Positions 19,697 through 52,855 of a DNA stretch of 52,855 nt are shown here, piece by piece (within the stretch, counting starts at the first letter, position 1; the number at the start of each line of letters is the position of its first letter). The DNA comes from an uncultured Candidatus Saccharibacteria bacterium (GTDB lineage: Bacteria; Patescibacteriota; Minisyncoccia; Phycocordibacterales; UBA9973). The notes under the pieces were generated by a model, which saw only the letters and a program-made list of their open reading frames with translations, was not told the origin of the DNA and searched no databases. A program made the translations under genes and the position numbers. The stretch lies in the NCBI GenBank assembly GCA_964544225.1, contig CAZIZK010000001.1, positions 1-52,855 on the forward strand, read 5' to 3'.

Positions 19697-19764
19697 CCCG
19701 TTAGAGAAAAGTCGCCCCAAGGTGACTGAAGCACTCACTTTTAGTGAGGGCGTTCTCTAACGGG
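19697..19764. mobile_element. 68-bp MITE/REP-like element with 12-bp terminal inverted repeats
   Basis: CCCGTTAGAGAA...TTCTCTAACGGG with internal hairpins, flanked by TTCAAT/ATCAAT direct repeats. It overlaps the prfB 3' end. Confidence 0.55.
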
Positions 19765-20631
19765 ATCAATAAAAACATCAAGCTTGCCATCATTTAGCAC
19801 AGAGTCAATATCATGCACCTCTACCCCTGTACGCAAATCCTTGATTAATTTATATGGGTGTAGTATATAATTGCGTATTTGATTGCCCCATTCTATATCG
19901 GTAGTCTTTGCTATCGATAGTCCGGCGGCGATCTTTGCATTATCCTCTTGCAACTTCTTGTACAATTTACCCTTTAGCATATTCATAGCCTTGTCCCTAT
20001 TCTGCTCTTGCGAACGCTCGGTAGCACAAGAAGTGGATATGTTGGTAGGTATGTGGACTATACGAACTGCGGTCTCCCTCTTGTTTACATTCTGGCCACC
20101 TGGGCCACCAGCCTTACTAAACTCAATACGTATATCATCGGGGTTGATATCCACAGGGGCATCGTGCTCAAATACTGGCACCACTTCAACGAGTGAGAAG
20201 CTGGTGCTACGCTTTGCCTTGGCATTAAATGGTGACAGTCGCACGAGGCGGTGCACACCACTCTCGTTCTTCAACATTCCATACGCACCCTTCCCTTTTA
20301 CCTCTACAGATATATTGCGGTATCCACCGTGGTCGTTTACATTCTCGTGCAACAAAGTCACACCGTAACCTTGGCGTTCGAAATATTTATAATACATACG
20401 CAAAAGCATAGCGGAAAAATCCTCGGCATCATCCCCACCTGCACCAGAAAGTATTGATAGTACTGCATTACCCTTGTCGTACTTTGCCTCGCCCAAAAGT
20501 GCGTCTTTGAATTCAGCAATAGTCTTGATCACACTTTGCGCATGAACTTTGTCATTCCAGAAATTTGGGTCCCCCATTTCCGCCTCAAGCTGTTCTATTT
20601 CTTTTTGTATTTCTTCCTTACTCTGTGACAT
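19741..20631 (-). CDS. prfB: peptide chain release factor 2, shortened N-terminal domain, no frameshift
   Basis: ESGVHRLVRLSPF (RF2 SPF tripeptide), GGPGGQNVNK, RSQEQN and WGNQIRNY. Confidence 0.93.
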   Translation of the reverse strand: MSQSKEEIQKEIEQLEAEMGDPNFWNDKVHAQSVIKTIAEFKDALLGEAKYDKGNAVLSILSGAGGDDAEDFSAMLLRMYYKYFERQGYGVTLLHENVNDHGGYRNISVEVKGKGAYGMLKNESGVHRLVRLSPFNAKAKRSTSFSLVEVVPVFEHDAPVDINPDDIRIEFSKAGGPGGQNVNKRETAVRIVHIPTNISTSCATERSQEQNRDKAMNMLKGKLYKKLQEDNAKIAAGLSIAKTTDIEWGNQIRNYILHPYKLIKDLRTGVEVHDIDSVLNDGKLDVFIDPVRERPH

Positions 20632-46133: not shown

Positions 46134-46416
46134 TTTGATTTATTTTTATTTAATTATTAGTTAATATTTTCGAATTATTACATATTATAAATATAAGATT
46201 CGGCACGTTGAAATACATCTTTGTGCAGATTTCTAAACTAGACTTGGCATATTTTAACCAAAGTCAGCTATATAAGTATTTATAATAAAGAGAGTTCTCT
46301 TTCGTGGCCGACCTATATCACACATCTTTGTAGAAGAAGTAATAAGCTAATATAAGTATATCACTTCCACATAAATATAGATAGCAGTCAATAGCATTAC
46401 ACCACATATGACTTTT

Positions 46417-46506
46417 TGGCGGAGCCGGACGGATTCGAACCGTCGAGGGCTTTTACACCCTGCCTCTTTAGCAAAGAGGTACGTTAGACCACTCTGACAC
46501 GGCTCC
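46417..46506 (-). tRNA. tRNA-Ser(GCT)
   Basis: GGAGCCG/CGGCTCC acceptor stem, CCTCT-TTGCTAA-AGAGG anticodon arm, long variable arm, G73, encoded CCA. Confidence 0.95.
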
Positions 46507-46512
46507 ATATTA

Positions 46513-46577
46513 AATTTAACTAAAGGACCAATAACACACGGATCCATGTTAATTTAACTAAAGGACCAATAACACAC
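46513..46577. repeat. tandem 27-bp exact direct repeat (period 38)
   Basis: AATTTAACTAAAGGACCAATAACACAC at 46513-46539 and 46551-46577. Confidence 0.95.
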
Positions 46578-46672
46578 ATCTCCATATTGGTTACAGATGC
46601 ATATTAGCATATAAAAAACATAAATAAAATAAGGCTTTTATAATTCTTAAAATATAGTATAATGCCTGTTAC

Positions 46673-46759
46673 GGAGGCGTGGATGAGTGGTTTAAATCAA
46701 CGGTTTACTAAACCGTCGAACCTTAATCGGTTCCGTGAGTTCGAATCTCACCGCCTCCG
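46673..46759 (+). tRNA. tRNA-Ser with ACT anticodon (A34)
   Basis: GGAGGCG/CGCCTCC acceptor stem, ACGGT-TTACTAA-ACCGT anticodon arm, long variable arm GAACC/GGTTC, GTGAG-TTCGAAT-CTCAC T-arm, G73. Confidence 0.9.
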
Positions 46760-46787
46760 CAGAGTCGTGATAGCACGAGATACATCG

Positions 46788-46818
46788 AAATCCAGTCTTA
46801 AAATTAGACTGGATTTTT
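46788..46818. terminator. terminator after tRNA-Ser(ACT)
   Basis: AAATCCAGTCT-7nt-AGACTGGATTTTT. Confidence 0.75.
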
Positions 46819-46832
46819 GATATAATATACTT

Positions 46833-47393
46833 ATGAAAAAAGAGATTGGTCTTAAAAAAGGCTTTGTTAAGGTAGAAAAATATAATCCCGAATGGAAAGA
46901 AGAGTTTAATAAAGAGAAAAAGAACTTGAAAAAGATTTTTGGTGATGTTGCTCTATCAATAGAACATGTAGGATCTACTTCGGTTGTAGGCTTGTCTGCA
47001 AAACCAATAATTGATATTGCTATTGGGGTTAACTCGCTAGAAGACATAGCCAAGGTTAAAGAGAAAATATTAAAGTTCTCTCATTATTCGATTAAGGAAA
47101 ATAATGCAGATGGCGAAATCCTTATGAGAAGAGGTGTGCCTATCAAGCAAGGTGAAGATAAGCCAAGTTTTATAACTCATTTTATTCATATTGTGGAAAT
47201 AGACGGCATAAAATATAAGGAAACATTAATGTACCGTGATTATTTAAGAAAAAATAAAGAAGTCCTAAAAGAATATAATGATCTAAAGCAAAAGTTAGCT
47301 ATTAAATACCAGAATGACAGAAAAGCTTATACTAAAGCAAAAGATGACTTCATTAAAAGTATTTTAAGTAAGTGTAATAGTTCGAATTTTTAG
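46833..47393 (+). CDS. GrpB (UPF0157) family protein
   Basis: YNPEW...F, IEHVGSTSV.GL.AKPIIDI, RDYLR...Y..LK and YT.AK..FI. Confidence 0.92.
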   Translation: MKKEIGLKKGFVKVEKYNPEWKEEFNKEKKNLKKIFGDVALSIEHVGSTSVVGLSAKPIIDIAIGVNSLEDIAKVKEKILKFSHYSIKENNADGEILMRRGVPIKQGEDKPSFITHFIHIVEIDGIKYKETLMYRDYLRKNKEVLKEYNDLKQKLAIKYQNDRKAYTKAKDDFIKSILSKCNSSNF

Positions 47394-47432
47394 CACGAAA
47401 TCGCCAGCAAATTATGGTATAATAAAACAATT

Positions 47433-47951
47433 ATGAAAGAAAATTTTATTTGTTTCATCACTGGACCAGCTGGTTCAGGTAAATCGTCAACATCAAAAGC
47501 GTTAGCAGAAAAATTTGAACGAAGTGCTGTAATAGAAGTAGATACTCTTCGTGGAATGATAAAGGGTGGTTATGTAAGGCCTTGGCCTTATAACGAAGAA
47601 GTGGAATTGCAAGCTTCACTTATTGTAAAAAATGCTTGTGATATGGCTAATAATTTTCTAGAAAAAGGTTTTAGTGTTTTTATTGAGGGTACTGCAGGAA
47701 GAAAAATGCTAGAACAGTATTCAAGTTTCTTTAAGGATAAAAACTTCAAAGCATTCTTGCTTTTGCCTTCTGTTGATTCTCTCTTGAAACGGTTTGATGA
47801 TAGAGGCGTTAATGAAGAACTTCGCAAGAGAACAGTTGACCTTCATAAGCAATTTTTAGAAAAGAAAGATGAGTTAAATTGTCAAATTATAAATTCTAGC
47901 GATCAAACATTAGAAGAAACTGTTGATGAGATTTATAAAGCAATTATATGA
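47433..47951 (+). CDS. P-loop small-molecule kinase (AAA_33 / CPT-like)
   Basis: ITGPAGSGKSS, EVDTLR, VFIEG, LLPSVDSLLKR. Ends in TGA. Confidence 0.8.
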   Translation: MKENFICFITGPAGSGKSSTSKALAEKFERSAVIEVDTLRGMIKGGYVRPWPYNEEVELQASLIVKNACDMANNFLEKGFSVFIEGTAGRKMLEQYSSFFKDKNFKAFLLLPSVDSLLKRFDDRGVNEELRKRTVDLHKQFLEKKDELNCQIINSSDQTLEETVDEIYKAII

Positions 47952-48484
47952 CTTCCGCTGAAAATATATTTATATTCGGAACAATTATCCTACTTTTAAT
48001 TTTGTCATTTTTTGTTAGAAATATTCCCTGGAAGAAATTGGGTCTAATACCAAAAAATTTGTTTCAAGGTTGGTGGCAAGTAGTTTTGTTTAATGTAAGT
48101 GTTTTCATATTAGTGCAATTTACTATTTTTTATAAACTCATAGACCTTCCAAATTGGATAACAGATAAAGACCCGCTATTACCCTTGCTCGTAATAATAC
48201 TACTTCAGGAATTGATATTTAGAGGATTACTAATAACTTGGCTAGAGAAATTGGGAAAACAAAAAGCCCTTTGGATAAGTGTTCTTGTCTTCGTATTATT
48301 TCATCTAGTAGCTCCATATTCGTGGTCTGTGGCTGGTCTTAGTTTTGCTGTTCTTACTTTGATTGGAGGATATTTCTGGGGTTGGCATTTCTTGAAATTT
48401 AGGAATATATACCTGCTTACTATTTCACATTTCCTTGTTAATTTGAGTTTCAATTATTTTATTTTTCAATTTCTTCTAAAATAG
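47948..48484 (+). CDS. CPBP (CAAX/Abi) intramembrane metalloprotease
   Basis: LQELIFRG, FVLFH and ISHFLVN. Confidence 0.85.
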   Translation: MTSAENIFIFGTIILLLILSFFVRNIPWKKLGLIPKNLFQGWWQVVLFNVSVFILVQFTIFYKLIDLPNWITDKDPLLPLLVIILLQELIFRGLLITWLEKLGKQKALWISVLVFVLFHLVAPYSWSVAGLSFAVLTLIGGYFWGWHFLKFRNIYLLTISHFLVNLSFNYFIFQFLLK

Positions 48485-48589
48485 TTATTCAAACATCACC
48501 CCTGGTTCGTAGCAAAATTTTAAGCCATAATTTATAATGGTTATTTTTCGGAGGTTAGTAGAAGTTCGAACCTATGATATAATTTTATT

Positions 48590-48988
48590 ATGATAGAAAA
48601 TATTTATCCAGAAGATTGGCAACAAACAAGAGGTTTCTATTCCCCAGCAAAAAAAATTGATATGGGAAATTTTTATATGATCTATGTATCTGGTCAACAG
48701 GTTGGTAAGAATGAAAACAACGAAGCTATAACAGATGATATAGAAGAACAAACAGAGCTTGTTTTTCAGTCAATTGAAAGTATATTAAAATCTGCTGATG
48801 CTTCAATGAAAGATGTTGTTAAAGCTCAAATATTTTTGACTGATATAAATGATTTCTCAAAAGTTTCTGCTATTAGAGATAAATGGTTTGCTGAAAGTAA
48901 GCCAGTTAGTACCTTGCTTGAAGTTAATGCTATGACTCGCAAAGGTGCGAAGATTGAAATAGAAGTAACTGCGATTATTAAGAAATAA
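48590..48988 (+). CDS. RidA/YjgF/YER057c family protein
   Basis: YSPA, IYVSGQ, EQT..VF..I..IL..A......VVK, P.STL.EV, IEIEVTA. Confidence 0.92.
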   Translation: MIENIYPEDWQQTRGFYSPAKKIDMGNFYMIYVSGQQVGKNENNEAITDDIEEQTELVFQSIESILKSADASMKDVVKAQIFLTDINDFSKVSAIRDKWFAESKPVSTLLEVNAMTRKGAKIEIEVTAIIKK

Positions 48989-48995
48989 TAAAATC

Positions 48996-49334
48996 ATGAA
49001 AATCATAAAAAAATCAAATGAAACTTTTATACGTGAAGATGCTCATGGTGGTAGTGGTGGACGTAAATTATTATTATCAGAAAATGAGATAAATAATGTT
49101 CAAGGTATGACATATGGGTTTTTGCCAGCAAATTCTAAATTTGCATGGCATATGCATGAAAAAATGAACGAGGTAATGATTGTTTTAAAAGGTCAAGGAA
49201 ATGTCCGAGACGAGGATGGTGTGTATTATTATTCCGTAGGAGACGTATTTATATTTCCAAAAAATATTTTTCATGAAATTGAAAATGTATCTAACGAAGA
49301 AAACGAATATATTTTTGTTCGAGTTTATGAATAA
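48996..49334 (+). CDS. cupin domain protein
   Basis: WHMHEKMNEVMIVLKG...GD.FIFP.N.FHEIEN. Confidence 0.9.
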   Translation: MKIIKKSNETFIREDAHGGSGGRKLLLSENEINNVQGMTYGFLPANSKFAWHMHEKMNEVMIVLKGQGNVRDEDGVYYYSVGDVFIFPKNIFHEIENVSNEENEYIFVRVYE

Positions 49335-49353
49335 AAAAAATTAGTATATAACT

Positions 49354-50040
49354 ATGGGAGAAATAACAAAATTTTACAAAGGAGAAGAAATAGCCAAAAA
49401 AGTAGTAGATTTTTGTCTAAAAAAATATAAATTTATCTATATTTCTGGTAATGGAGGATCAGGAAAAACAACTCTGAGCAAACAATTAGTAAAAGAGGTT
49501 AATTCACGTGGTTTAAATGCTAACTGTATTGATATGGATGATTTTATGATTGATTCCAAGATACGCAAAAGTATCCAAAAAGAATGGATTGACGCTAAGG
49601 GCAATAAAAGAGTTGGTTATATGGGGTGGGCGTTTAAAGAGTCTTATCATTTAGCTGAATTAGAAACAATAATTCATTCTTCAATATATGGAAAAGATTC
49701 TTTTTACAAGCCCAAGAAAGACGATAACGTTGCAGAAGTAAAAGCAGAATTTCCAATAACAATAATTGAGGGTGTGGGTACAGCATTTCTTAAAAAAGAA
49801 GAAACTGTGTTTGGTATTTTTGCTATGTGTGATTTTAAATCTGAAATAGATAGACGCATAAAAAGAGCTCGTGATGGAGAAGATAATTTATCTCGTCAAG
49901 AAGTTGAAGAAAAAGCTATAGAAAGAAATGAGCAATTCGAGATGACAATTTTACCTGAGAAAAATAAATTTGATTTGGAGCTCTGGAGTTTAGAAGACCA
50001 CTCATTCAGAGTGGAACGAGATAATTTTAGTATATTATAA
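49354..50040 (+). CDS. uridine kinase-like P-loop kinase
   Basis: ISGNGGSGKTT, IDMDDF, IIEGVG and RRIKR. Confidence 0.75.
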   Translation: MGEITKFYKGEEIAKKVVDFCLKKYKFIYISGNGGSGKTTLSKQLVKEVNSRGLNANCIDMDDFMIDSKIRKSIQKEWIDAKGNKRVGYMGWAFKESYHLAELETIIHSSIYGKDSFYKPKKDDNVAEVKAEFPITIIEGVGTAFLKKEETVFGIFAMCDFKSEIDRRIKRARDGEDNLSRQEVEEKAIERNEQFEMTILPEKNKFDLELWSLEDHSFRVERDNFSIL

Positions 50041-50054
50041 ATTATAGTAAAATT

Positions 50055-50501
50055 ATGGAAAATTTAATCAAAAACATAGTTAAAAATGCTGAATCTTTAA
50101 AAGATAAATATACTGATCAAAAAAATGTTCCAGTTAACTATGCCTGTATATTTTGCCAATCTGAAGAAGAACAAACTAATTTTTTAAAGGAAGCACATAA
50201 GTTAGGTGCAATAATACAAGAAACACCAAGTGGTCCGCTGTTTAAAATATCCCTAGATACAATCTCTGGTAAATTACAATTATTAAAAATTAGAAAACCA
50301 GACCCAACTAGACCAGAACGTGGAGATGCTGATTTCACCATTTCAGATTATCCTTCCTTTAAAGAAAAGTATTTAAATCAAGCTGGATTTTCACTTATAC
50401 AAAAAGAAAATTTTGAGATGATTGAACTATACGAAAAAGACAATAGAGTGAGAGTATATTTTTCATTTCCTCCTTTAGATAAACAATTAAATTTAATATA
50501 A
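50055..50501 (+). CDS. hypothetical protein (possible VOC/YecM-like fold)
   Basis: 148-aa ORF with a TATAGT box 6 nt upstream. Fold assignment is tentative. Confidence 0.65.
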   Translation: MENLIKNIVKNAESLKDKYTDQKNVPVNYACIFCQSEEEQTNFLKEAHKLGAIIQETPSGPLFKISLDTISGKLQLLKIRKPDPTRPERGDADFTISDYPSFKEKYLNQAGFSLIQKENFEMIELYEKDNRVRVYFSFPPLDKQLNLI

Positions 50502-50508
50502 TCAATTT

Positions 50509-51969
50509 ATGGGTTGGATAATTTTTATCATTTTCATAATCTACGTCGTATACAGTTCTTCTAAAAAGAATGCTACTTATAAAACCCCAACAAGAAATAC
50601 TACTTATAATTCCTATACAAAGAAACCCTATCGTTCTCCTGTTGTTAATAGAAAACTTAATGAGGATCAAGTATTTATAGAGAAAATAATATTAAGTGAA
50701 GAACAACAAAAACTTTTTGATAAAATAGAAAATAGTAATGACCACTTTTTTATTACAGGAAAAGCAGGAACAGGTAAATCTGTATTACTCCAATATTTAA
50801 AATACAAATCAAACAAAAAAATTGTTGTGGGTGCTTTTACTGGAGTCGCAGCTTTAAATGTTGGTGGTCAAACATTGAACTCTCTTTTTAATATCCCTAC
50901 AGGTTTTATTGATATGTCTCAACTTAGAGTTAACACAAGAGTTGCTACACTAGTTAGACATGTTGATTCAATAGTCATTGATGAAATATCTATGGTAAGA
51001 GTAGACATGATGGAAGCCATTAATGTCTTACTTCAACAAGCAAAAGGTAATCGGCTTCCATTTGGTGGTATACAAATGGTTATGTTTGGTGATCTTTATC
51101 AACTTCCACCTGTAGTTTCAGATGATGGGTTGCATGAATATTTTGCACATAATTATGGTGGTCAATATTTTTTTAATGCTCCCGTATGGAGAAATACAAA
51201 AATAAACATATTTGAGCTTATTCATAATTTTAGACAAAAAGATGATGAGGTATTCAGGAATGTTTTAAATGCTGTTAGGAAAAATCAGATTGAAGATACA
51301 ATTTTAGAAACACTAAATCAAAGATGTGTTGTTGATATTCCAACAGAGGGAGTTGTCACATTAGCTACTCGGAATGATATTGTTAATGAAATTAATAGTA
51401 CTAGATTAGATCATATTGATAGTCCAGAATTTGTGTATAAAGCAGAAATTTCAGGTAGTCTTGAAAGAAGTTATTTTCCTGCAGAAGAATTTTTAAGACT
51501 TAAAAAAGGGGCTCAAGTTATGCTATTAAAAAATGATCCTGAAAAAAGGTGGGTAAATGGAACGGTTGGAGTTGTTGAATCTTTATCTCAAACAGAAATA
51601 AAAGTTAAAATTAATGGAGAAATTATTTATTCAATTCCACAAGCTTCTTGGACAAAGATAAGATATTACTATGATCAAGGAACAAGAAAAATTGAAGAAG
51701 AGGTGTTAAGTACTTTCACACAATTCCCATTAAGGCTTGCTTGGGCATTTACAATTCATAAATCCCAAGGAAAAACTTATAATTCAGTTATAGTAAATAT
51801 GGAAGGAGGAGCTTTCGCTCATGGACAAACTTATGTTGCTCTAAGTCGTTGTACATCCCTTGATGGATTATATTTAACTCAACCTATTCTAAGAGAAGAT
51901 ATTCAAGTTGATCCATTAGTTACTACTTTCATGGAACAAATAATTATTGAGGATATTGAGACAAAGTAA
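50509..51969 (+). CDS. Pif1-family SF1B DNA helicase with N-terminal TM anchor
   Basis: TGKAGTGKS, FTGVAALN.GG.T, IDEISMV, PFGGIQ..MFGDLYQLPPV, FRQ, QFPLRLAWAFTIHKSQG and YVALSR. Confidence 0.92.
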   Translation: MGWIIFIIFIIYVVYSSSKKNATYKTPTRNTTYNSYTKKPYRSPVVNRKLNEDQVFIEKIILSEEQQKLFDKIENSNDHFFITGKAGTGKSVLLQYLKYKSNKKIVVGAFTGVAALNVGGQTLNSLFNIPTGFIDMSQLRVNTRVATLVRHVDSIVIDEISMVRVDMMEAINVLLQQAKGNRLPFGGIQMVMFGDLYQLPPVVSDDGLHEYFAHNYGGQYFFNAPVWRNTKINIFELIHNFRQKDDEVFRNVLNAVRKNQIEDTILETLNQRCVVDIPTEGVVTLATRNDIVNEINSTRLDHIDSPEFVYKAEISGSLERSYFPAEEFLRLKKGAQVMLLKNDPEKRWVNGTVGVVESLSQTEIKVKINGEIIYSIPQASWTKIRYYYDQGTRKIEEEVLSTFTQFPLRLAWAFTIHKSQGKTYNSVIVNMEGGAFAHGQTYVALSRCTSLDGLYLTQPILREDIQVDPLVTTFMEQIIIEDIETK

Positions 51970-52855
51970 TCTTTTTATTTGATAAGCAAATTTTACTTTT
52001 TAAACATCCCAATAGTTCTCTTTTCTCAATATCACTTCCTTCCCTTAATACATATCTAGCATATCCTCGTATATCTACACTTGGTATACTGACTTTTTCT
52101 TTAGTTCCTAAAAAGAAATTCTGTAAGTTAGTGAATTTCTCAACATCTGCTTTAATTTTTTCTTTAATTTGAATTTCATTGATGTCTATTTTTTCAATTA
52201 ATTCCTCAAACTGTTTGAGAATGTCTTTCTCTTCCGTATATCCACATTTACAATCAGCTCCTCTGGCTTTAGTACAGCCATAATATACATATCTTGTAAT
52301 TGTTCCGTTTTTGTATTTCTTAAACTTCTCATCTGCACATATACCTGATCCACAAAGTCCACAGGTCATCATTTTGGTGAAAGCAAATTCTTTGTTTTCA
52401 ATTCTAAGCACATTACTTTTAATTTGATCTTGGACCAAATTAAATAACTCTTTAGTAATTAATGGTTCATGTTTTCCTGTATACCAATTGCCTGATTTTT
52501 TAGGATATTCAAATACTCCATAGTAATAGGGGTTATCTAATATCTTGTATATATTACCGAGACTTAAATGTTTTTTTCCATTAGAAGTTCTAAAGTTTAA
52601 ATCAAATCTAAGCCAGTTATATATCTTTCTTCCACTCCAATGCTCATATGCTACTTTCTCAAACATCTTCTTGATAGCTGGTGATCTTTCTGGGTCTAAA
52701 ATAGCTTGGCATTTTCTGTCGGTCCTTTTCTCATTTAAATAACCAGTAGGTGCTACACCTGGTCTTAATCCCATTTCACATCTTGTCCTTAATCCTCGTC
52801 TAACATTTACACTTTTGTTATCATTTTCAAGTTTTGCCTGAGAACATAAAATCAT
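51944..52855 (-). CDS. large serine recombinase, C-terminal part (catalytic N-terminus beyond window)
   Basis: S..V.RG......G..P..AP.GY, IKKMFE, I...L.NPYY.G, G.HEPLI..ELF..VQ, and a zinc ribbon CGLCG...YY.C. Confidence 0.88.
   Translation of the reverse strand: MILCSQAKLENDNKSVNVRRGLRTRCEMGLRPGVAPTGYLNEKRTDRKCQAILDPERSPAIKKMFEKVAYEHWSGRKIYNWLRFDLNFRTSNGKKHLSLGNIYKILDNPYYYGVFEYPKKSGNWYTGKHEPLITKELFNLVQDQIKSNVLRIENKEFAFTKMMTCGLCGSGICADEKFKKYKNGTITRYVYYGCTKARGADCKCGYTEEKDILKQFEELIEKIDINEIQIKEKIKADVEKFTNLQNFFLGTKEKVSIPSVDIRGYARYVLREGSDIEKRELLGCLKSKICLSNKKITLSQYPQ

What the first reader, a model, noticed from the sequence alone, without database searches (positions are those of the whole stretch)
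46673..46759. Intact tRNA-Ser with an ACT anticodon (A34 in the split Ser/Arg codon box) beside a normal tRNA-Ser(GCT)
Seen: a well-paired type II cloverleaf with Ser identity elements (G1:C72, G2:C71, A3:U70, G73, long variable arm), loop TT-ACT-AA (anticodon 46707-46709) and an upstream TATAAT. It is divergent from tRNA-Ser(GCT), whose loop TT-GCT-AA differs only at base 34 while the bodies are very different. Established: bacterial A34 tRNAs are essentially limited to Arg(ACG), edited to inosine by TadA, with sporadic cases in four-fold boxes. I34 here would read AGA (Arg) as Ser, so A34 is normally avoided in split boxes. AGA still encodes Arg at conserved sites here (e.g. RNase J EERKDK). 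Inference: either an unmodified-A34 AGU-dedicated decoder (implying tadA loss or discrimination), a regulated Ser-for-Arg mistranslation or recoding device, or a tRNA kept for a non-ribosomal role or as the island attachment site.
Basis: partly seen in the sequence, partly recalled or inferred. Interest (0 to 1): 0.75.

Follow-up and report, generated by a model that had tools for sequence, protein, structure and literature searches.

The report
Serine tRNA with "missing" ACU anticodon
This is a real, well-formed serine tRNA gene with an ACU anticodon, a type that reviews call universally absent; it is conserved across many ultra-small CPR (Patescibacteria) bacteria and also occurs in many phage contigs, most likely as a dedicated reader of the AGU serine codon.

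Summary
Positions 46673-46759 (+) encode a canonical long-arm tRNA-Ser with loop TT-ACT-AA, next to a divergently oriented tRNA-Ser(GCT). A second assembly also reads A at position 34.

It is not a one-off. Of those loci, 118 carry a called tRNA-Ser(ACT), and most are Patescibacteria/CPR. In all 48 loci where a Ser(GCT) lies within 600 nt, it lies upstream, as it does here.

The 113 distinct genes keep 98.9% of stem positions paired, with many compensatory changes. In a scan that left the anticodon free, every tRNA at least 90% identical to this one (35 of 35) carried ACT.

Viral contigs also carry Ser(ACT), mostly in tRNA arrays and never with Ser(GCT).

The best reading is a translating, AGU-specialised tRNA-Ser whose A34 stays unmodified:
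- CPR lacks tRNA-Arg(ACG).
- An ACU anticodon is not edited by TadA in E. coli and reads essentially only AGU there.
- AGA is the commonest Arg codon in genomes that carry this tRNA.

Recoding, error and pseudogene readings are not supported. The papers I could search call this anticodon "universally missing", so the lineage-wide conservation appears unreported. Modification state and charging remain untested.

The parts
46673..46759 (+). tRNA-Ser(ACU) gene, positions 1-73; type II (long variable arm); no encoded CCA
   Evidence: ARAGORN; Rfam tRNA 56.3 bits; cloverleaf fold; orthologues and covariation
46707..46709 (+). anticodon ACT (A34 C35 U36) in loop TTACTAA
   Evidence: sequence; the same bases in the independent Logan contig L001
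46658..46663 (+). promoter-like -10 box TATAAT, 9 nt upstream of the mature 5' end (a second TATAAT lies at 46639-46644); function inferred
   Evidence: sequence; 30-50 nt upstream of the tRNA are conserved at DNA level in relatives L144, L226, L284, L289, L306, L326
46784..46821 (+). terminator-like hairpin (about 14 bp) ending in a T-run; closes the tRNA transcription unit (inferred)
   Evidence: fold, -22.2 kcal/mol for 46761-46825, z = -5.7; not found by the simple terminator scan
46417..46506 (-). tRNA-Ser(GCU), divergently oriented partner; encodes CCA; reads AGC (and AGU by G:U wobble)
   Evidence: ARAGORN; Rfam 45 bits; Ser(GCT) lies upstream of Ser(ACT) in 48 of 48 loci where the two are within 600 nt
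46513..46588 (.). two tandem 38-nt repeats in the spacer between the two tRNA genes, with a third degenerate copy overlapping the 5' end of tRNA-Ser(GCT) at 46487-46511; role unknown
   Evidence: the repeat finder
46833..52855 (.). low-GC (30.5%) accessory block directly 3' of the tRNA: GrpB, zeta-like kinase, CPBP protease, RidA, cupin, PRK-like NTPase, hypothetical, PIF1 helicase, and a large serine recombinase (51944-52855, minus strand, cut by the window end). Probably an integrated island; context, not part of the tRNA's function
   Evidence: Pfam; composition and codon usage; recombinase homologues near Ser(ACT) in L308 and L148

Best explanation
This is a functional elongator tRNA-Ser with anticodon ACU. 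It belongs to the core genome of a Patescibacteria (CPR) bacterium, probably Paceibacteria or Nomurabacteria, and forms a conserved pair with tRNA-Ser(GCU). It is transcribed from its own promoter and receives CCA after transcription. SerRS should charge it through the usual anticodon-independent identity set (G1:C72, G2:C71, A3:U70, G73, long variable arm). A34 stays unmodified, so the tRNA reads AGU by Watson-Crick pairing, while tRNA-Ser(GCU) covers AGC. It does not read AGA or AGG to any harmful extent. A34 escapes deamination because the lineage has given up the Arg(ACG)/TadA inosine system, and because U36 replaces the G36 that TadA needs. Shown here: the gene, its fold, its conservation, its covariation, its fixed anticodon, its synteny and standard codon meaning. 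Inferred: expression, charging, the unmodified state of A34 and AGU-only decoding.
For: 1. Real gene. Searches confirm the tRNA, and an independent assembly has the same anticodon.

2. Lineage-wide. Of those loci, 118 have a called tRNA-Ser(act), and about 89 titles are CPR groups: Saccharibacteria, Paceibacteria, Nomurabacteria, Levyibacteriota, Gottesman-, Woese-, Microgenomates and Minisyncoccia. The closest are 92-97% identical (L151, L155, L157, L142).

3. Structural selection. Among 113 distinct sequences, 98.9% of stem cells are paired, against 34-61% for slid controls. 16 of 25 pairs show double-sided changes. The covariation score is 0.569, against 0.16 shuffled and 0.07-0.09 slid. 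G1, G2, A3, U70, C71, C72 and G73 are invariant.

4. The anticodon is a fixed trait. In a scan that left the anticodon arm free, 35 of 35 tRNAs at least 90% identical to this one, and 41 of 45 at 80-90%, carry ACT. The other 4 are TGA and none is GCT.

5. Conserved synteny. Ser(GCT) lies upstream of Ser(ACT) in 48 of 48 close pairs. L311 also shares PilM and ComF-like neighbours with the window.

6. No inosine system. CPR loci hold Arg(gcg) x7, Arg(ccg) x2 and Arg(acg) x0, as reported in PMC8629427. No deaminase lies in the window.

7. Experimental precedent. An ACU anticodon in E. coli read AGU at 9.4%, AGC and AGA were below detection, AGG was 0.36%, and no A-to-I editing was seen (PMC11066159).

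8. AGA is not avoided. It makes up 29.9% of Arg codons in 157,943 codons from loci carrying Ser(ACT). AGA/AGG sit at conserved Arg and AGT at Ser/Thr in CTP synthase.

9. Viral arrays. Viral tRNA arrays carry Ser(ACT) as their only AGY reader, next to readers of A/U-ending codons.
Against: No direct evidence exists for expression, charging or the modification state of A34.

A TadA/GuaD-family deaminase lies beside the tRNA pair in one syntenic relative, L311. It scores 73.8 bits on the TadA model against a cut-off of 150, and it was the only such hit in 1.57 Mb. So a deaminase in CPR cannot be excluded.

A recent preprint found that a two-fold-box A34 tRNA (Phe-AAA) was deaminated in E. coli.

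Codon usage shows no special AGU enrichment: AGT/AGY is 0.685, against 0.687 for AAY and 0.695 for GAY. Loci carrying the tRNA span 26-60% GC. So a simple 'AT-rich genomes need an AGU reader' benefit is not demonstrated, and the selective advantage over G:U wobble by tRNA-Ser(GCU) is unexplained.

Both large scans were cut at 120 rows and were ascertained by sequence patterns, so the fraction of CPR genomes with this tRNA is unknown.
Confidence: 0.7

Rival explanations
1. A34 is deaminated to inosine by a TadA-like or other CDA-fold deaminase, giving anticodon ICU. That would read AGU, AGC and AGA, so the tRNA would cause constitutive or regulated Ser-for-Arg mistranslation at AGA, or a partial recoding.
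For: A34 is nearly always converted to I34 where it occurs (PMC8007984). A two-fold-box A34 tRNA was deaminated in E. coli (preprint). A TadA/GuaD-family deaminase sits next to the tRNA pair in L311.
Against: AGA is the most used Arg codon in genomes carrying the tRNA, at 29.9% of Arg and 11.9 per thousand codons. AGA and AGG code conserved Arg in CTP synthase. U36 replaces the G36 of the TadA substrate, and E. coli TadA did not edit an ACU anticodon. CPR loci have Arg(GCG), not Arg(ACG) (PMC8629427). The L311 deaminase fails the TadA cut-off and is not linked to the tRNA in about 240 other loci.
Confidence: 0.07
2. A34 carries some other, unknown modification that tunes decoding, for example by restricting it to U or extending it to C. 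The tRNA would still be a translating Ser tRNA, but not one with a plain adenosine.
For: Nothing direct. Wobble bases are commonly modified, CPR modification enzymes are poorly known, and the retention of the tRNA across 26-60% GC hints at a benefit beyond simple A:U pairing.
Against: No A34 modification other than inosine is established in bacteria (my own knowledge, consistent with PMC8007984). Plain A34 in an ACU anticodon already discriminates well.
Confidence: 0.12
3. The tRNA is kept mainly for a role outside ribosomal decoding. It might be an integration target for mobile elements, a Ser donor for cell-envelope or lipid aminoacylation, or a regulatory RNA.
For: A foreign-looking, low-GC block with a large serine recombinase begins just 3' of the gene. 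DNA homology with relatives ends exactly at the tRNA 3' end. Recombinase homologues lie 1-2 kb from Ser(ACT) in L308 and L148.
Against: The T-loop, D-loop, acceptor stem and anticodon loop are fully canonical and under covariation. The anticodon itself is invariant in the clade, which a mere attachment site would not require. Phage arrays carry it as their only AGY reader. No repeat of the tRNA 3' end occurs in the window. Being an integration hot spot is compatible with, not an alternative to, a decoding role.
Confidence: 0.08
4. It is a sequencing or assembly error, or a recently mutated, decaying copy (G34A) of a normal Ser tRNA.
For: It is one point mutation away from GCT. Logan contigs break inside this repeat-rich region.
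Against: An independent assembly has the same base. More than 110 distinct orthologues carry ACT, with compensatory stem changes. The body is only 61% identical to the resident Ser(GCT). No GCT-bearing tRNA occurs among tRNAs at least 80% identical to it.
Confidence: 0.01

Closest known systems
Bacterial tRNA-Ser(GCU) (E. coli serV type), the standard reader of AGC/AGU
   Same: Same amino acid, same codon box, same loop apart from base 34 (UUGCUAA vs UUACUAA), same type II architecture and Ser identity set. It is co-resident and adjacent here.
   Different: G34 versus A34. The body is only 61% identical. The ACU tRNA's acceptor, D and T arms resemble the lineage's Ser(UGA) more (median 0.83) than its Ser(GCU) (0.69).
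tRNA-Arg(ACG) with TadA (I34), the one widespread A34-encoded bacterial tRNA
   Same: A34 is encoded in the gene, with C35 next to it and U33 before it.
   Different: Arg(ACG) has G36, sits in a four-fold box and is obligatorily deaminated. Here position 36 is U, the box is split, and the lineage lacks Arg(ACG) (PMC8629427). E. coli TadA does not edit ACU.
Mycoplasma tRNA-Thr(AGU) with unmodified A34 (Andachi 1987, Inagaki 1995, as cited in PMC11066159)
   Same: A natural, apparently unmodified A34 tRNA in a reduced-genome bacterium that has lost or does not use the inosine system.
   Different: That tRNA serves a four-fold box where misreading is harmless. Ser(ACU) sits in a split Ser/Arg box and coexists with its GNN partner.
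Leu(AAG) and Thr(AGU) of Lactobacillales/Leuconostocaceae (PMC8007984; preprint 10.64898/2026.05.15.725136)
   Same: Lineage-wide retention of a non-Arg A34 tRNA in AT-rich bacteria.
   Different: Those are four-fold-box tRNAs that replace the GNN isoacceptor and are (or are thought to be) deaminated by TadA. Ser(ACU) is a two-fold-box tRNA kept alongside GNN, probably unedited.
Engineered ACU-anticodon tRNAs in E. coli (PMC11066159; preprint 10.64898/2026.05.15.725136)
   Same: Same anticodon. The experiments show AGU-specific reading and no inosine.
   Different: These are artificial constructs on a heterologous tRNA-Tyr body (the first paper) or on E. coli backbones (the preprint). The CPR gene is a natural, conserved Ser tRNA.
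Virus-borne tRNA-Ser(ACU), listed for chlorovirus ATCV-1 in PMC4810235
   Same: Same anticodon on a mobile genome. My IMG/VR scan finds 25 such genes, usually in tRNA arrays.
   Different: The viral genes have different bodies (at most about 80% identical to the window tRNA; for isolated phages) and come without Ser(GCU). The window gene is chromosomal and paired with Ser(GCU).

Membership tests
Bacterial elongator tRNA-Ser (type II) | Cloverleaf with 7-bp acceptor stem, D arm with G18G19, 5-bp anticodon stem and 7-nt loop with U33, and a T arm with a GTTCRAN-type loop | tested here: met
   ARAGORN, Rfam tRNA 56.3 bits and the fold; these features are conserved in 113 sequences
Bacterial elongator tRNA-Ser (type II) | Long variable arm with a paired stem | tested here: met
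   5-bp stem at 46718-46733; all five pairs covary, 95.4% of cells paired
Bacterial elongator tRNA-Ser (type II) | SerRS identity elements G1:C72, G2:C71, A3:U70 and discriminator G73. SerRS does not read the anticodon (established knowledge). | tested here: met
   Present in the window gene and invariant in all 113 sequences
Bacterial elongator tRNA-Ser (type II) | Actually aminoacylated with serine and used on the ribosome | not testable with these tools
   Needs charging assays, tRNA-seq or proteomics
TadA substrate (I34 tRNA) | Anticodon loop with U33-A34-C35-G36, as in tRNA-Arg(ACG) | tested here: not met
   Position 36 is U. E. coli TadA left an ACU anticodon unedited (PMC11066159).
TadA substrate (I34 tRNA) | A TadA enzyme encoded in the same genome | tested here: inconclusive
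   No deaminase in the 52.9-kb window. CPR loci have Arg(GCG), not Arg(ACG) (PMC8629427). One TadA/GuaD-family gene below the TadA cut-off lies in L311. The whole genome was not available.
Codon reassignment / recoding tRNA | The codon read by the tRNA aligns with a different amino acid at conserved positions than the standard code predicts | tested here: not met
   AGT aligns with Ser/Thr and AGA/AGG with Arg in CTP synthase. This is a spot check on one protein, not a genome-wide screen.
tRNA pseudogene or assembly artefact | Singleton occurrence, broken stems, no conservation of the odd base | tested here: not met
tRNA gene used as attachment site of an integrative element | A recombinase-bearing, compositionally foreign block abutting the tRNA 3' end | tested here: met
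   GC 30.5% against 39.6% for the rest; AGA-dominated Arg codons; large serine recombinase at 51944-52855. Homology with relatives stops at 46760/61.
tRNA gene used as attachment site of an integrative element | A second boundary with a repeat of the tRNA 3' segment (for tyrosine integrases), or a defined attL/attR pair | tested here: inconclusive
   No repeat in the window. The far end lies beyond the window, and serine recombinases need only a very short core.

The most novel reading that the evidence does not exclude
Patescibacteria as a group, and independently a broad set of viruses, have fixed a plain-adenosine-34 tRNA in a split codon box. Current reviews and a 2026 survey of 4,047 bacterial genomes describe that isoacceptor as universally or nearly absent. 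If so, CPR bacteria are a natural, ancient exception to the rule against A-starting anticodons. They would offer a direct way to test why A34 is avoided elsewhere, for example through dependence on loss of the TadA/Arg(ACG) system, ribosome or EF-Tu adaptations, or a fitness gain from Watson-Crick reading of AGU.
Probability: 0.55. Interest if true: 0.8.

Novelty: new variant of a known kind. Interest (0 to 1): 0.72.

Why it matters
Why tRNAs with unmodified A at the wobble position are almost never used is a long-standing puzzle of the genetic code. A 2021 review states that A34 is "universally missing" in the Ser-Arg split box. A 2026 experimental preprint builds such tRNAs artificially because natural, stably inherited two-fold-box examples were not known.

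A conserved, covarying, syntenic tRNA-Ser(ACU) across many CPR lineages, with a parallel set in viral tRNA arrays, supplies natural material for that question. It also bears on how CPR bacteria decode with a reduced modification toolkit.

There is a practical side too. Annotation pipelines and codon-adaptation models that assume AGU is read only by G:U wobble would be wrong for this large part of bacterial diversity.

Tried and rejected
1. Error or pseudogene. Rejected by the independent assembly, by more than 110 orthologues and by covariation.

2. Recent G34A mutant of the neighbouring Ser(GCT). Rejected, because the bodies are 61% identical and no GCT occurs among close relatives.

3. Phage origin of the window gene. 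The best isolated-phage match is 79.5% identical, and the gene sits in conserved chromosomal synteny. IMG/VR Ser(ACT) genes have different bodies.

4. AT-richness as the driver. Support is weak. Viral ACT loci are slightly more AT-rich than GCT loci (0.390 vs 0.415 GC, p = 0.02). The metagenome set shows no difference (p = 0.66). ACT loci span 26-60% GC. AGT/AGY equals AAY and GAY.

5. Direct repeat of the tRNA 3' end, to define an island. None found in the window.

6. TadA in the DNA I hold. There was one sub-threshold TadA/GuaD-family hit (L311), and the test has low power (about 1.6 Mb).

7. Literature. Eight full-text searches found no description of bacterial or CPR Ser(ACU). Rafels-Ybern et al. 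2019 is not held in the library.

8. A suspected prfB frameshift upstream of the short release-factor ORF. Not there.

Full report
**The observation**

The window holds seven tRNA genes by ARAGORN. Two of them are tRNA-Ser(gct) at 46417-46506 (-) and tRNA-Ser(act) at 46673-46760 (+). Both pass the Rfam tRNA model, at 45 and 56.3 bits against a gathering score of 29.

The sequence gives the following:
- a 7-bp acceptor stem (GGAGGCG/CGCCTCC) with G1:C72, G2:C71 and A3:U70
- discriminator G73, U8 and G18G19
- anticodon stem ACGGT/ACCGT with loop TTACTAA, so the anticodon is at 46707-46709
- a 5-bp variable-arm stem and T-loop GTTCGAATC

CCA is not encoded. The minimum-energy fold is the cloverleaf (z = -3.4). 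TATAAT boxes lie at 46639-46644 and 46658-46663. A strong hairpin plus T-run follows at 46784-46821 (z = -5.7). So the gene looks like its own transcription unit, although that is an inference.

The neighbouring Ser(GCT) has the same loop apart from base 34, but it is only 53/87 identical overall. A Logan assembly of run SRR13208906 (L001) begins inside the tRNA and reads the same TTACTAA.

**Not a singleton**

I first scanned for the anticodon stem, T-loop and a free anticodon in IMG/VR viral contigs.

ARAGORN calls tRNA-Ser(act) in 118 of those 120 loci, giving 112 distinct sequences. About 89 record titles name CPR/Patescibacteria groups: Saccharibacteria, Paceibacteria/-ota, Nomurabacteria, Levyibacteriota, Gottesman-, Woese-, Zambryski- and Taylorbacteria, Microgenomates and Minisyncoccia.

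The closest relatives are a Paceibacteria MAG (L151, identical from position 1 to 73), L155, Nomurabacteria GW2011_GWE2_34_25 (L157) and L142, at 92-97% identity. The window is therefore most likely from Paceibacteria or Nomurabacteria. The rest of the window is ordinary CPR chromosome: partial 16S, RNase J, CTP synthase, FtsEX, a release factor, GatA, LigA, a type IV pilus cluster and a sortase.

**A gene under selection, with a fixed anticodon**

I aligned 113 distinct Ser(ACT) genes (A1) and counted pairs on the cloverleaf.
- 98.9% of cells are paired, against 34-61% when partners are slid.
- 16 of 25 pairs have changes on both sides, amounting to 602 cells.
- The covariation score is 0.569, against 0.16 for shuffles and 0.07-0.09 for slid controls.

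Four pairs of the anticodon stem are invariant only because my pattern fixed them. The acceptor, D, variable and T stems were free, and they covary. G1, G2, A3, U70, C71, C72 and G73, which form the Ser identity set, are invariant.

To remove ascertainment on the anticodon, I scanned metagenome contigs for this tRNA's D-arm plus T-loop and left the whole anticodon arm free. Of 120 tRNAs found, 85 are ACT, 26 GCT, 7 TGA, 1 AGA and 1 Leu(AAG). Split by similarity to the window tRNA:
- at least 90% identical: 35 of 35 are ACT
- 80-90% identical: 41 ACT and 4 TGA
- GCT appears only at 80% identity or below, mostly inside large tRNA arrays

So ACT is a stable property of this tRNA clade, not a recurrent slip from GCT. 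The four TGA tRNAs share almost the same acceptor, D and T arms (for example L307). In loci with both genes, the ACT body is closer to Ser(TGA) (median 0.83, n = 9) than to Ser(GCT) (0.69, n = 124). That comparison is ungapped, so I treat it as indicative only.

**Synteny**

Wherever Ser(GCT) lies within 600 nt of Ser(ACT), it lies upstream. That holds in 48 of 48 cases: 32 divergent, as in the window, and 16 co-oriented. L311 also shares PilM and ComF-like genes with the window on that side. The pair is core genome.

**Would A34 be edited?**

Three lines argue that it would not.

- The lineage seems to lack the inosine system. Shulgina and Eddy (PMC8629427) report that the Arg(ACG) gene appears to be lacking in CPR, which uses Arg(GCG) instead. 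In my 120 GTDB loci the Arg tRNAs are GCG x7, CCG x2 and ACG x0. The window has no deaminase.
- Position 36 is U, not the G of TadA's natural substrate. In E. coli, an orthogonal tRNA with anticodon ACU showed no inosine. It read AGU at 9.4%, AGC and AGA were below detection, and AGG was 0.36% (PMC11066159).
- An ICU anticodon would read AGA as Ser, yet genomes carrying this tRNA do not avoid AGA. In 157,943 codons from about 100 such loci, AGA is the commonest Arg codon (29.9% of Arg; 11.9 per thousand). In the window's CTP synthase, AGG-coded R46 aligns with Arg in 3 of 3 solved homologues. AGA-coded R140 and R541 align with Arg in 2 of 3. AGT-coded S258 and S456 align with Ser or Thr.

There are caveats.
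It is a 156-189 aa CDA-fold deaminase directly beside the tRNA pair in L311.
- That protein scores 73.8 bits on NCBI's TadA equivalog model, against a cut-off of 150. It matches solved TadA (66 bits) and guanine deaminase (63 bits) equally well. It cannot be called TadA, and it is not linked to the tRNA in the other roughly 240 loci. Still, it shows that I cannot claim absence of all such enzymes.
- A 2026 preprint reports that a two-fold-box A34 tRNA (Phe-AAA) was deaminated in E. coli.

**Why keep it?**

The obvious idea is better reading of AGU in AT-rich genomes, and support for it is only partial. In the window, AGT is 70% of AGY, similar to AAY at 69% and TGY at 75%. Across loci carrying Ser(ACT), AGT/AGY is 0.685, against 0.687 for AAY and 0.695 for GAY. 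Those loci span 26-60% GC.

The viral data fit a U-ending-codon specialist better. All 25 viral Ser(ACT) genes come without Ser(GCT). Most sit in arrays with Lys(UUU), Glu(UUC), Ile(UAU), Gln(UUG), Thr(UGU) and Arg(UCU). Their loci are slightly more AT-rich than those with GCT (0.390 vs 0.415 GC; p = 0.02). The selective benefit in CPR therefore remains an inference.

**The flank**

From 46833 to the window end, the DNA is 30.5% GC against 39.6% for the rest. Arg usage switches from CGN-dominated (399 CGN to 57 AGA) to AGA-dominated (48 AGA to 23 CGN). The block encodes GrpB, a zeta-like kinase, a CPBP protease, RidA, a cupin, a PRK-like NTPase, a PIF1 helicase and a large serine recombinase that runs off the window.

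DNA homology with several relatives covers the tRNA and 30-50 nt upstream and stops at 46760/61. Recombinase homologues lie 1-2 kb from Ser(ACT) in L308 (88% identity) and L148. No repeat of the tRNA 3' end occurs in the window.

So an island probably sits next to the tRNA, but its far boundary is not in view. This does not explain why the tRNA or its anticodon is conserved.

**What is known**

Ehrlich et al. [quoted passage not shown]

Raval et al. (bioRxiv 10.64898/2026.05.15.725136) surveyed GtRNAdb (4,047 bacteria). They found two-fold-box A34 tRNAs only sporadically, always with the GNN partner, and no lineage-wide retention.

Schmitt et al. 2024 call unmodified A34 tRNAs extremely rare.

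The only natural Ser(ACU) I found in print is a table entry for chlorovirus ATCV-1 (PMC4810235).

Eight full-text searches found no description for CPR or for bacteria in general. The library does not hold every journal, so prior mention elsewhere cannot be excluded.

**Verdict**

The finding is real and more interesting than a single odd gene. The window holds one member of a conserved CPR family of tRNA-Ser(ACU). It is most likely a translating, AGU-specific reader with plain A34 (confidence 0.7). Recoding, artefact and pseudogene readings are not supported. I rate it a new variant of a known kind: a tRNA-Ser isoacceptor with an anticodon thought to be unused. Interest is 0.72.

Noticed in passing
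window 46487-46588 (also 46310-46327): Two tandem 38-nt repeats fill the spacer between the two Ser tRNA genes. A third, degenerate copy overlaps the 5' end of tRNA-Ser(GCT), and a partial copy lies downstream of that gene. Logan contigs of SRR13208906 break in this region (L002 ends near 46473, L001 starts at 46695).
   Followed up: partly
window 46833-52855: Low-GC (30.5% vs 39.6%) accessory block with AGA-dominated Arg codons. It encodes GrpB, a zeta-like kinase, a CPBP protease, RidA, a cupin, a PRK-like NTPase, a PIF1 helicase and a large serine recombinase cut by the window end. Recombinase homologues lie 1-2 kb from Ser(ACT) in L308 and L148, which suggests a recurrent integration hot spot.
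   Followed up: partly
IMG/VR loci L005-L121 (e.g. L019, L027, L040, L086, L103): 25 of 120 viral long-arm tRNAs with this anticodon stem are Ser(ACT). Most sit in tRNA arrays of A/U-ending-codon readers (Lys UUU, Glu UUC, Ile UAU, Gln UUG, Thr UGU, Arg UCU) and never with Ser(GCT). Other non-Arg A34 tRNAs also occur in these loci: Thr AGT x4, Ser AGA x3, Leu AAG x3, His ATG x1, Phe AAA x1.
   Followed up: partly
L311 5929-6498 (-): A TadA/guanine-deaminase-family protein (HAE...PCxxC) lies directly beside the Ser(GCT)/Ser(ACT) pair in a locus syntenic with the window. It scores 73.8 bits against a cut-off of 150 on the TadA model, and it is the only such gene in 1.57 Mb searched.
   Followed up: yes
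GTDB loci L157, L176, L235 and others; metagenome loci L243-L362: tRNA-Ile with anticodon TAT recurs in CPR loci (6 in the GTDB set, 14 in the metagenome set). This suggests AUA is read by a UAU-anticodon tRNA rather than by the usual lysidine-modified CAU tRNA.
   Followed up: no
L307 3377-3441; L125 1640-1828; L282, L342, L273: Ser(TGA) tRNAs of the same lineages share almost identical acceptor, D and T arms with Ser(ACT) and differ mainly in the anticodon and variable arms. This hints at common origin or concerted evolution of the two isoacceptors.
   Followed up: partly
GTDB loci L126, L130, L138, L145, L147, L153, L160, L164, L191, L217, L219, L224, L234: Records titled 'uncultured Gammaproteobacteria' or 'Pseudomonadales' carry a Ser(ACT) gene, in most of them with the body type seen in Levyibacteriota, Gottesmanbacteria and Microgenomates. 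Two are contigs of about 1 Mb. The taxonomic labels look doubtful.
   Followed up: no
GTDB loci L128, L129, L149, L156, L187, L225: Ser(ACT) genes in MAGs labelled Verrucomicrobia, Planctomycetes or Flavobacteriales have virus-like bodies (the L156 gene is identical to viral L039). These are probably phage or prophage contigs binned with the MAGs.
   Followed up: no
window, all long ORFs: TGA ends only 2 of 54 long ORFs (TAA 42, TAG 10). A short 296-aa release factor with PCRF and RF-1 domains (19741-20631, -) starts at its own ATG with no upstream frameshift site.
   Followed up: partly
window 46708-46759 (-): The reverse strand of the tRNA gives a sub-threshold match (39 bits vs 68) to Rfam 'Plastid-psbI-rps4 3'UTR'. 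This seems to reflect only sequence shared with the tRNA (the match spans its T arm, GATTCGAAC) and is not a separate feature.
   Followed up: no
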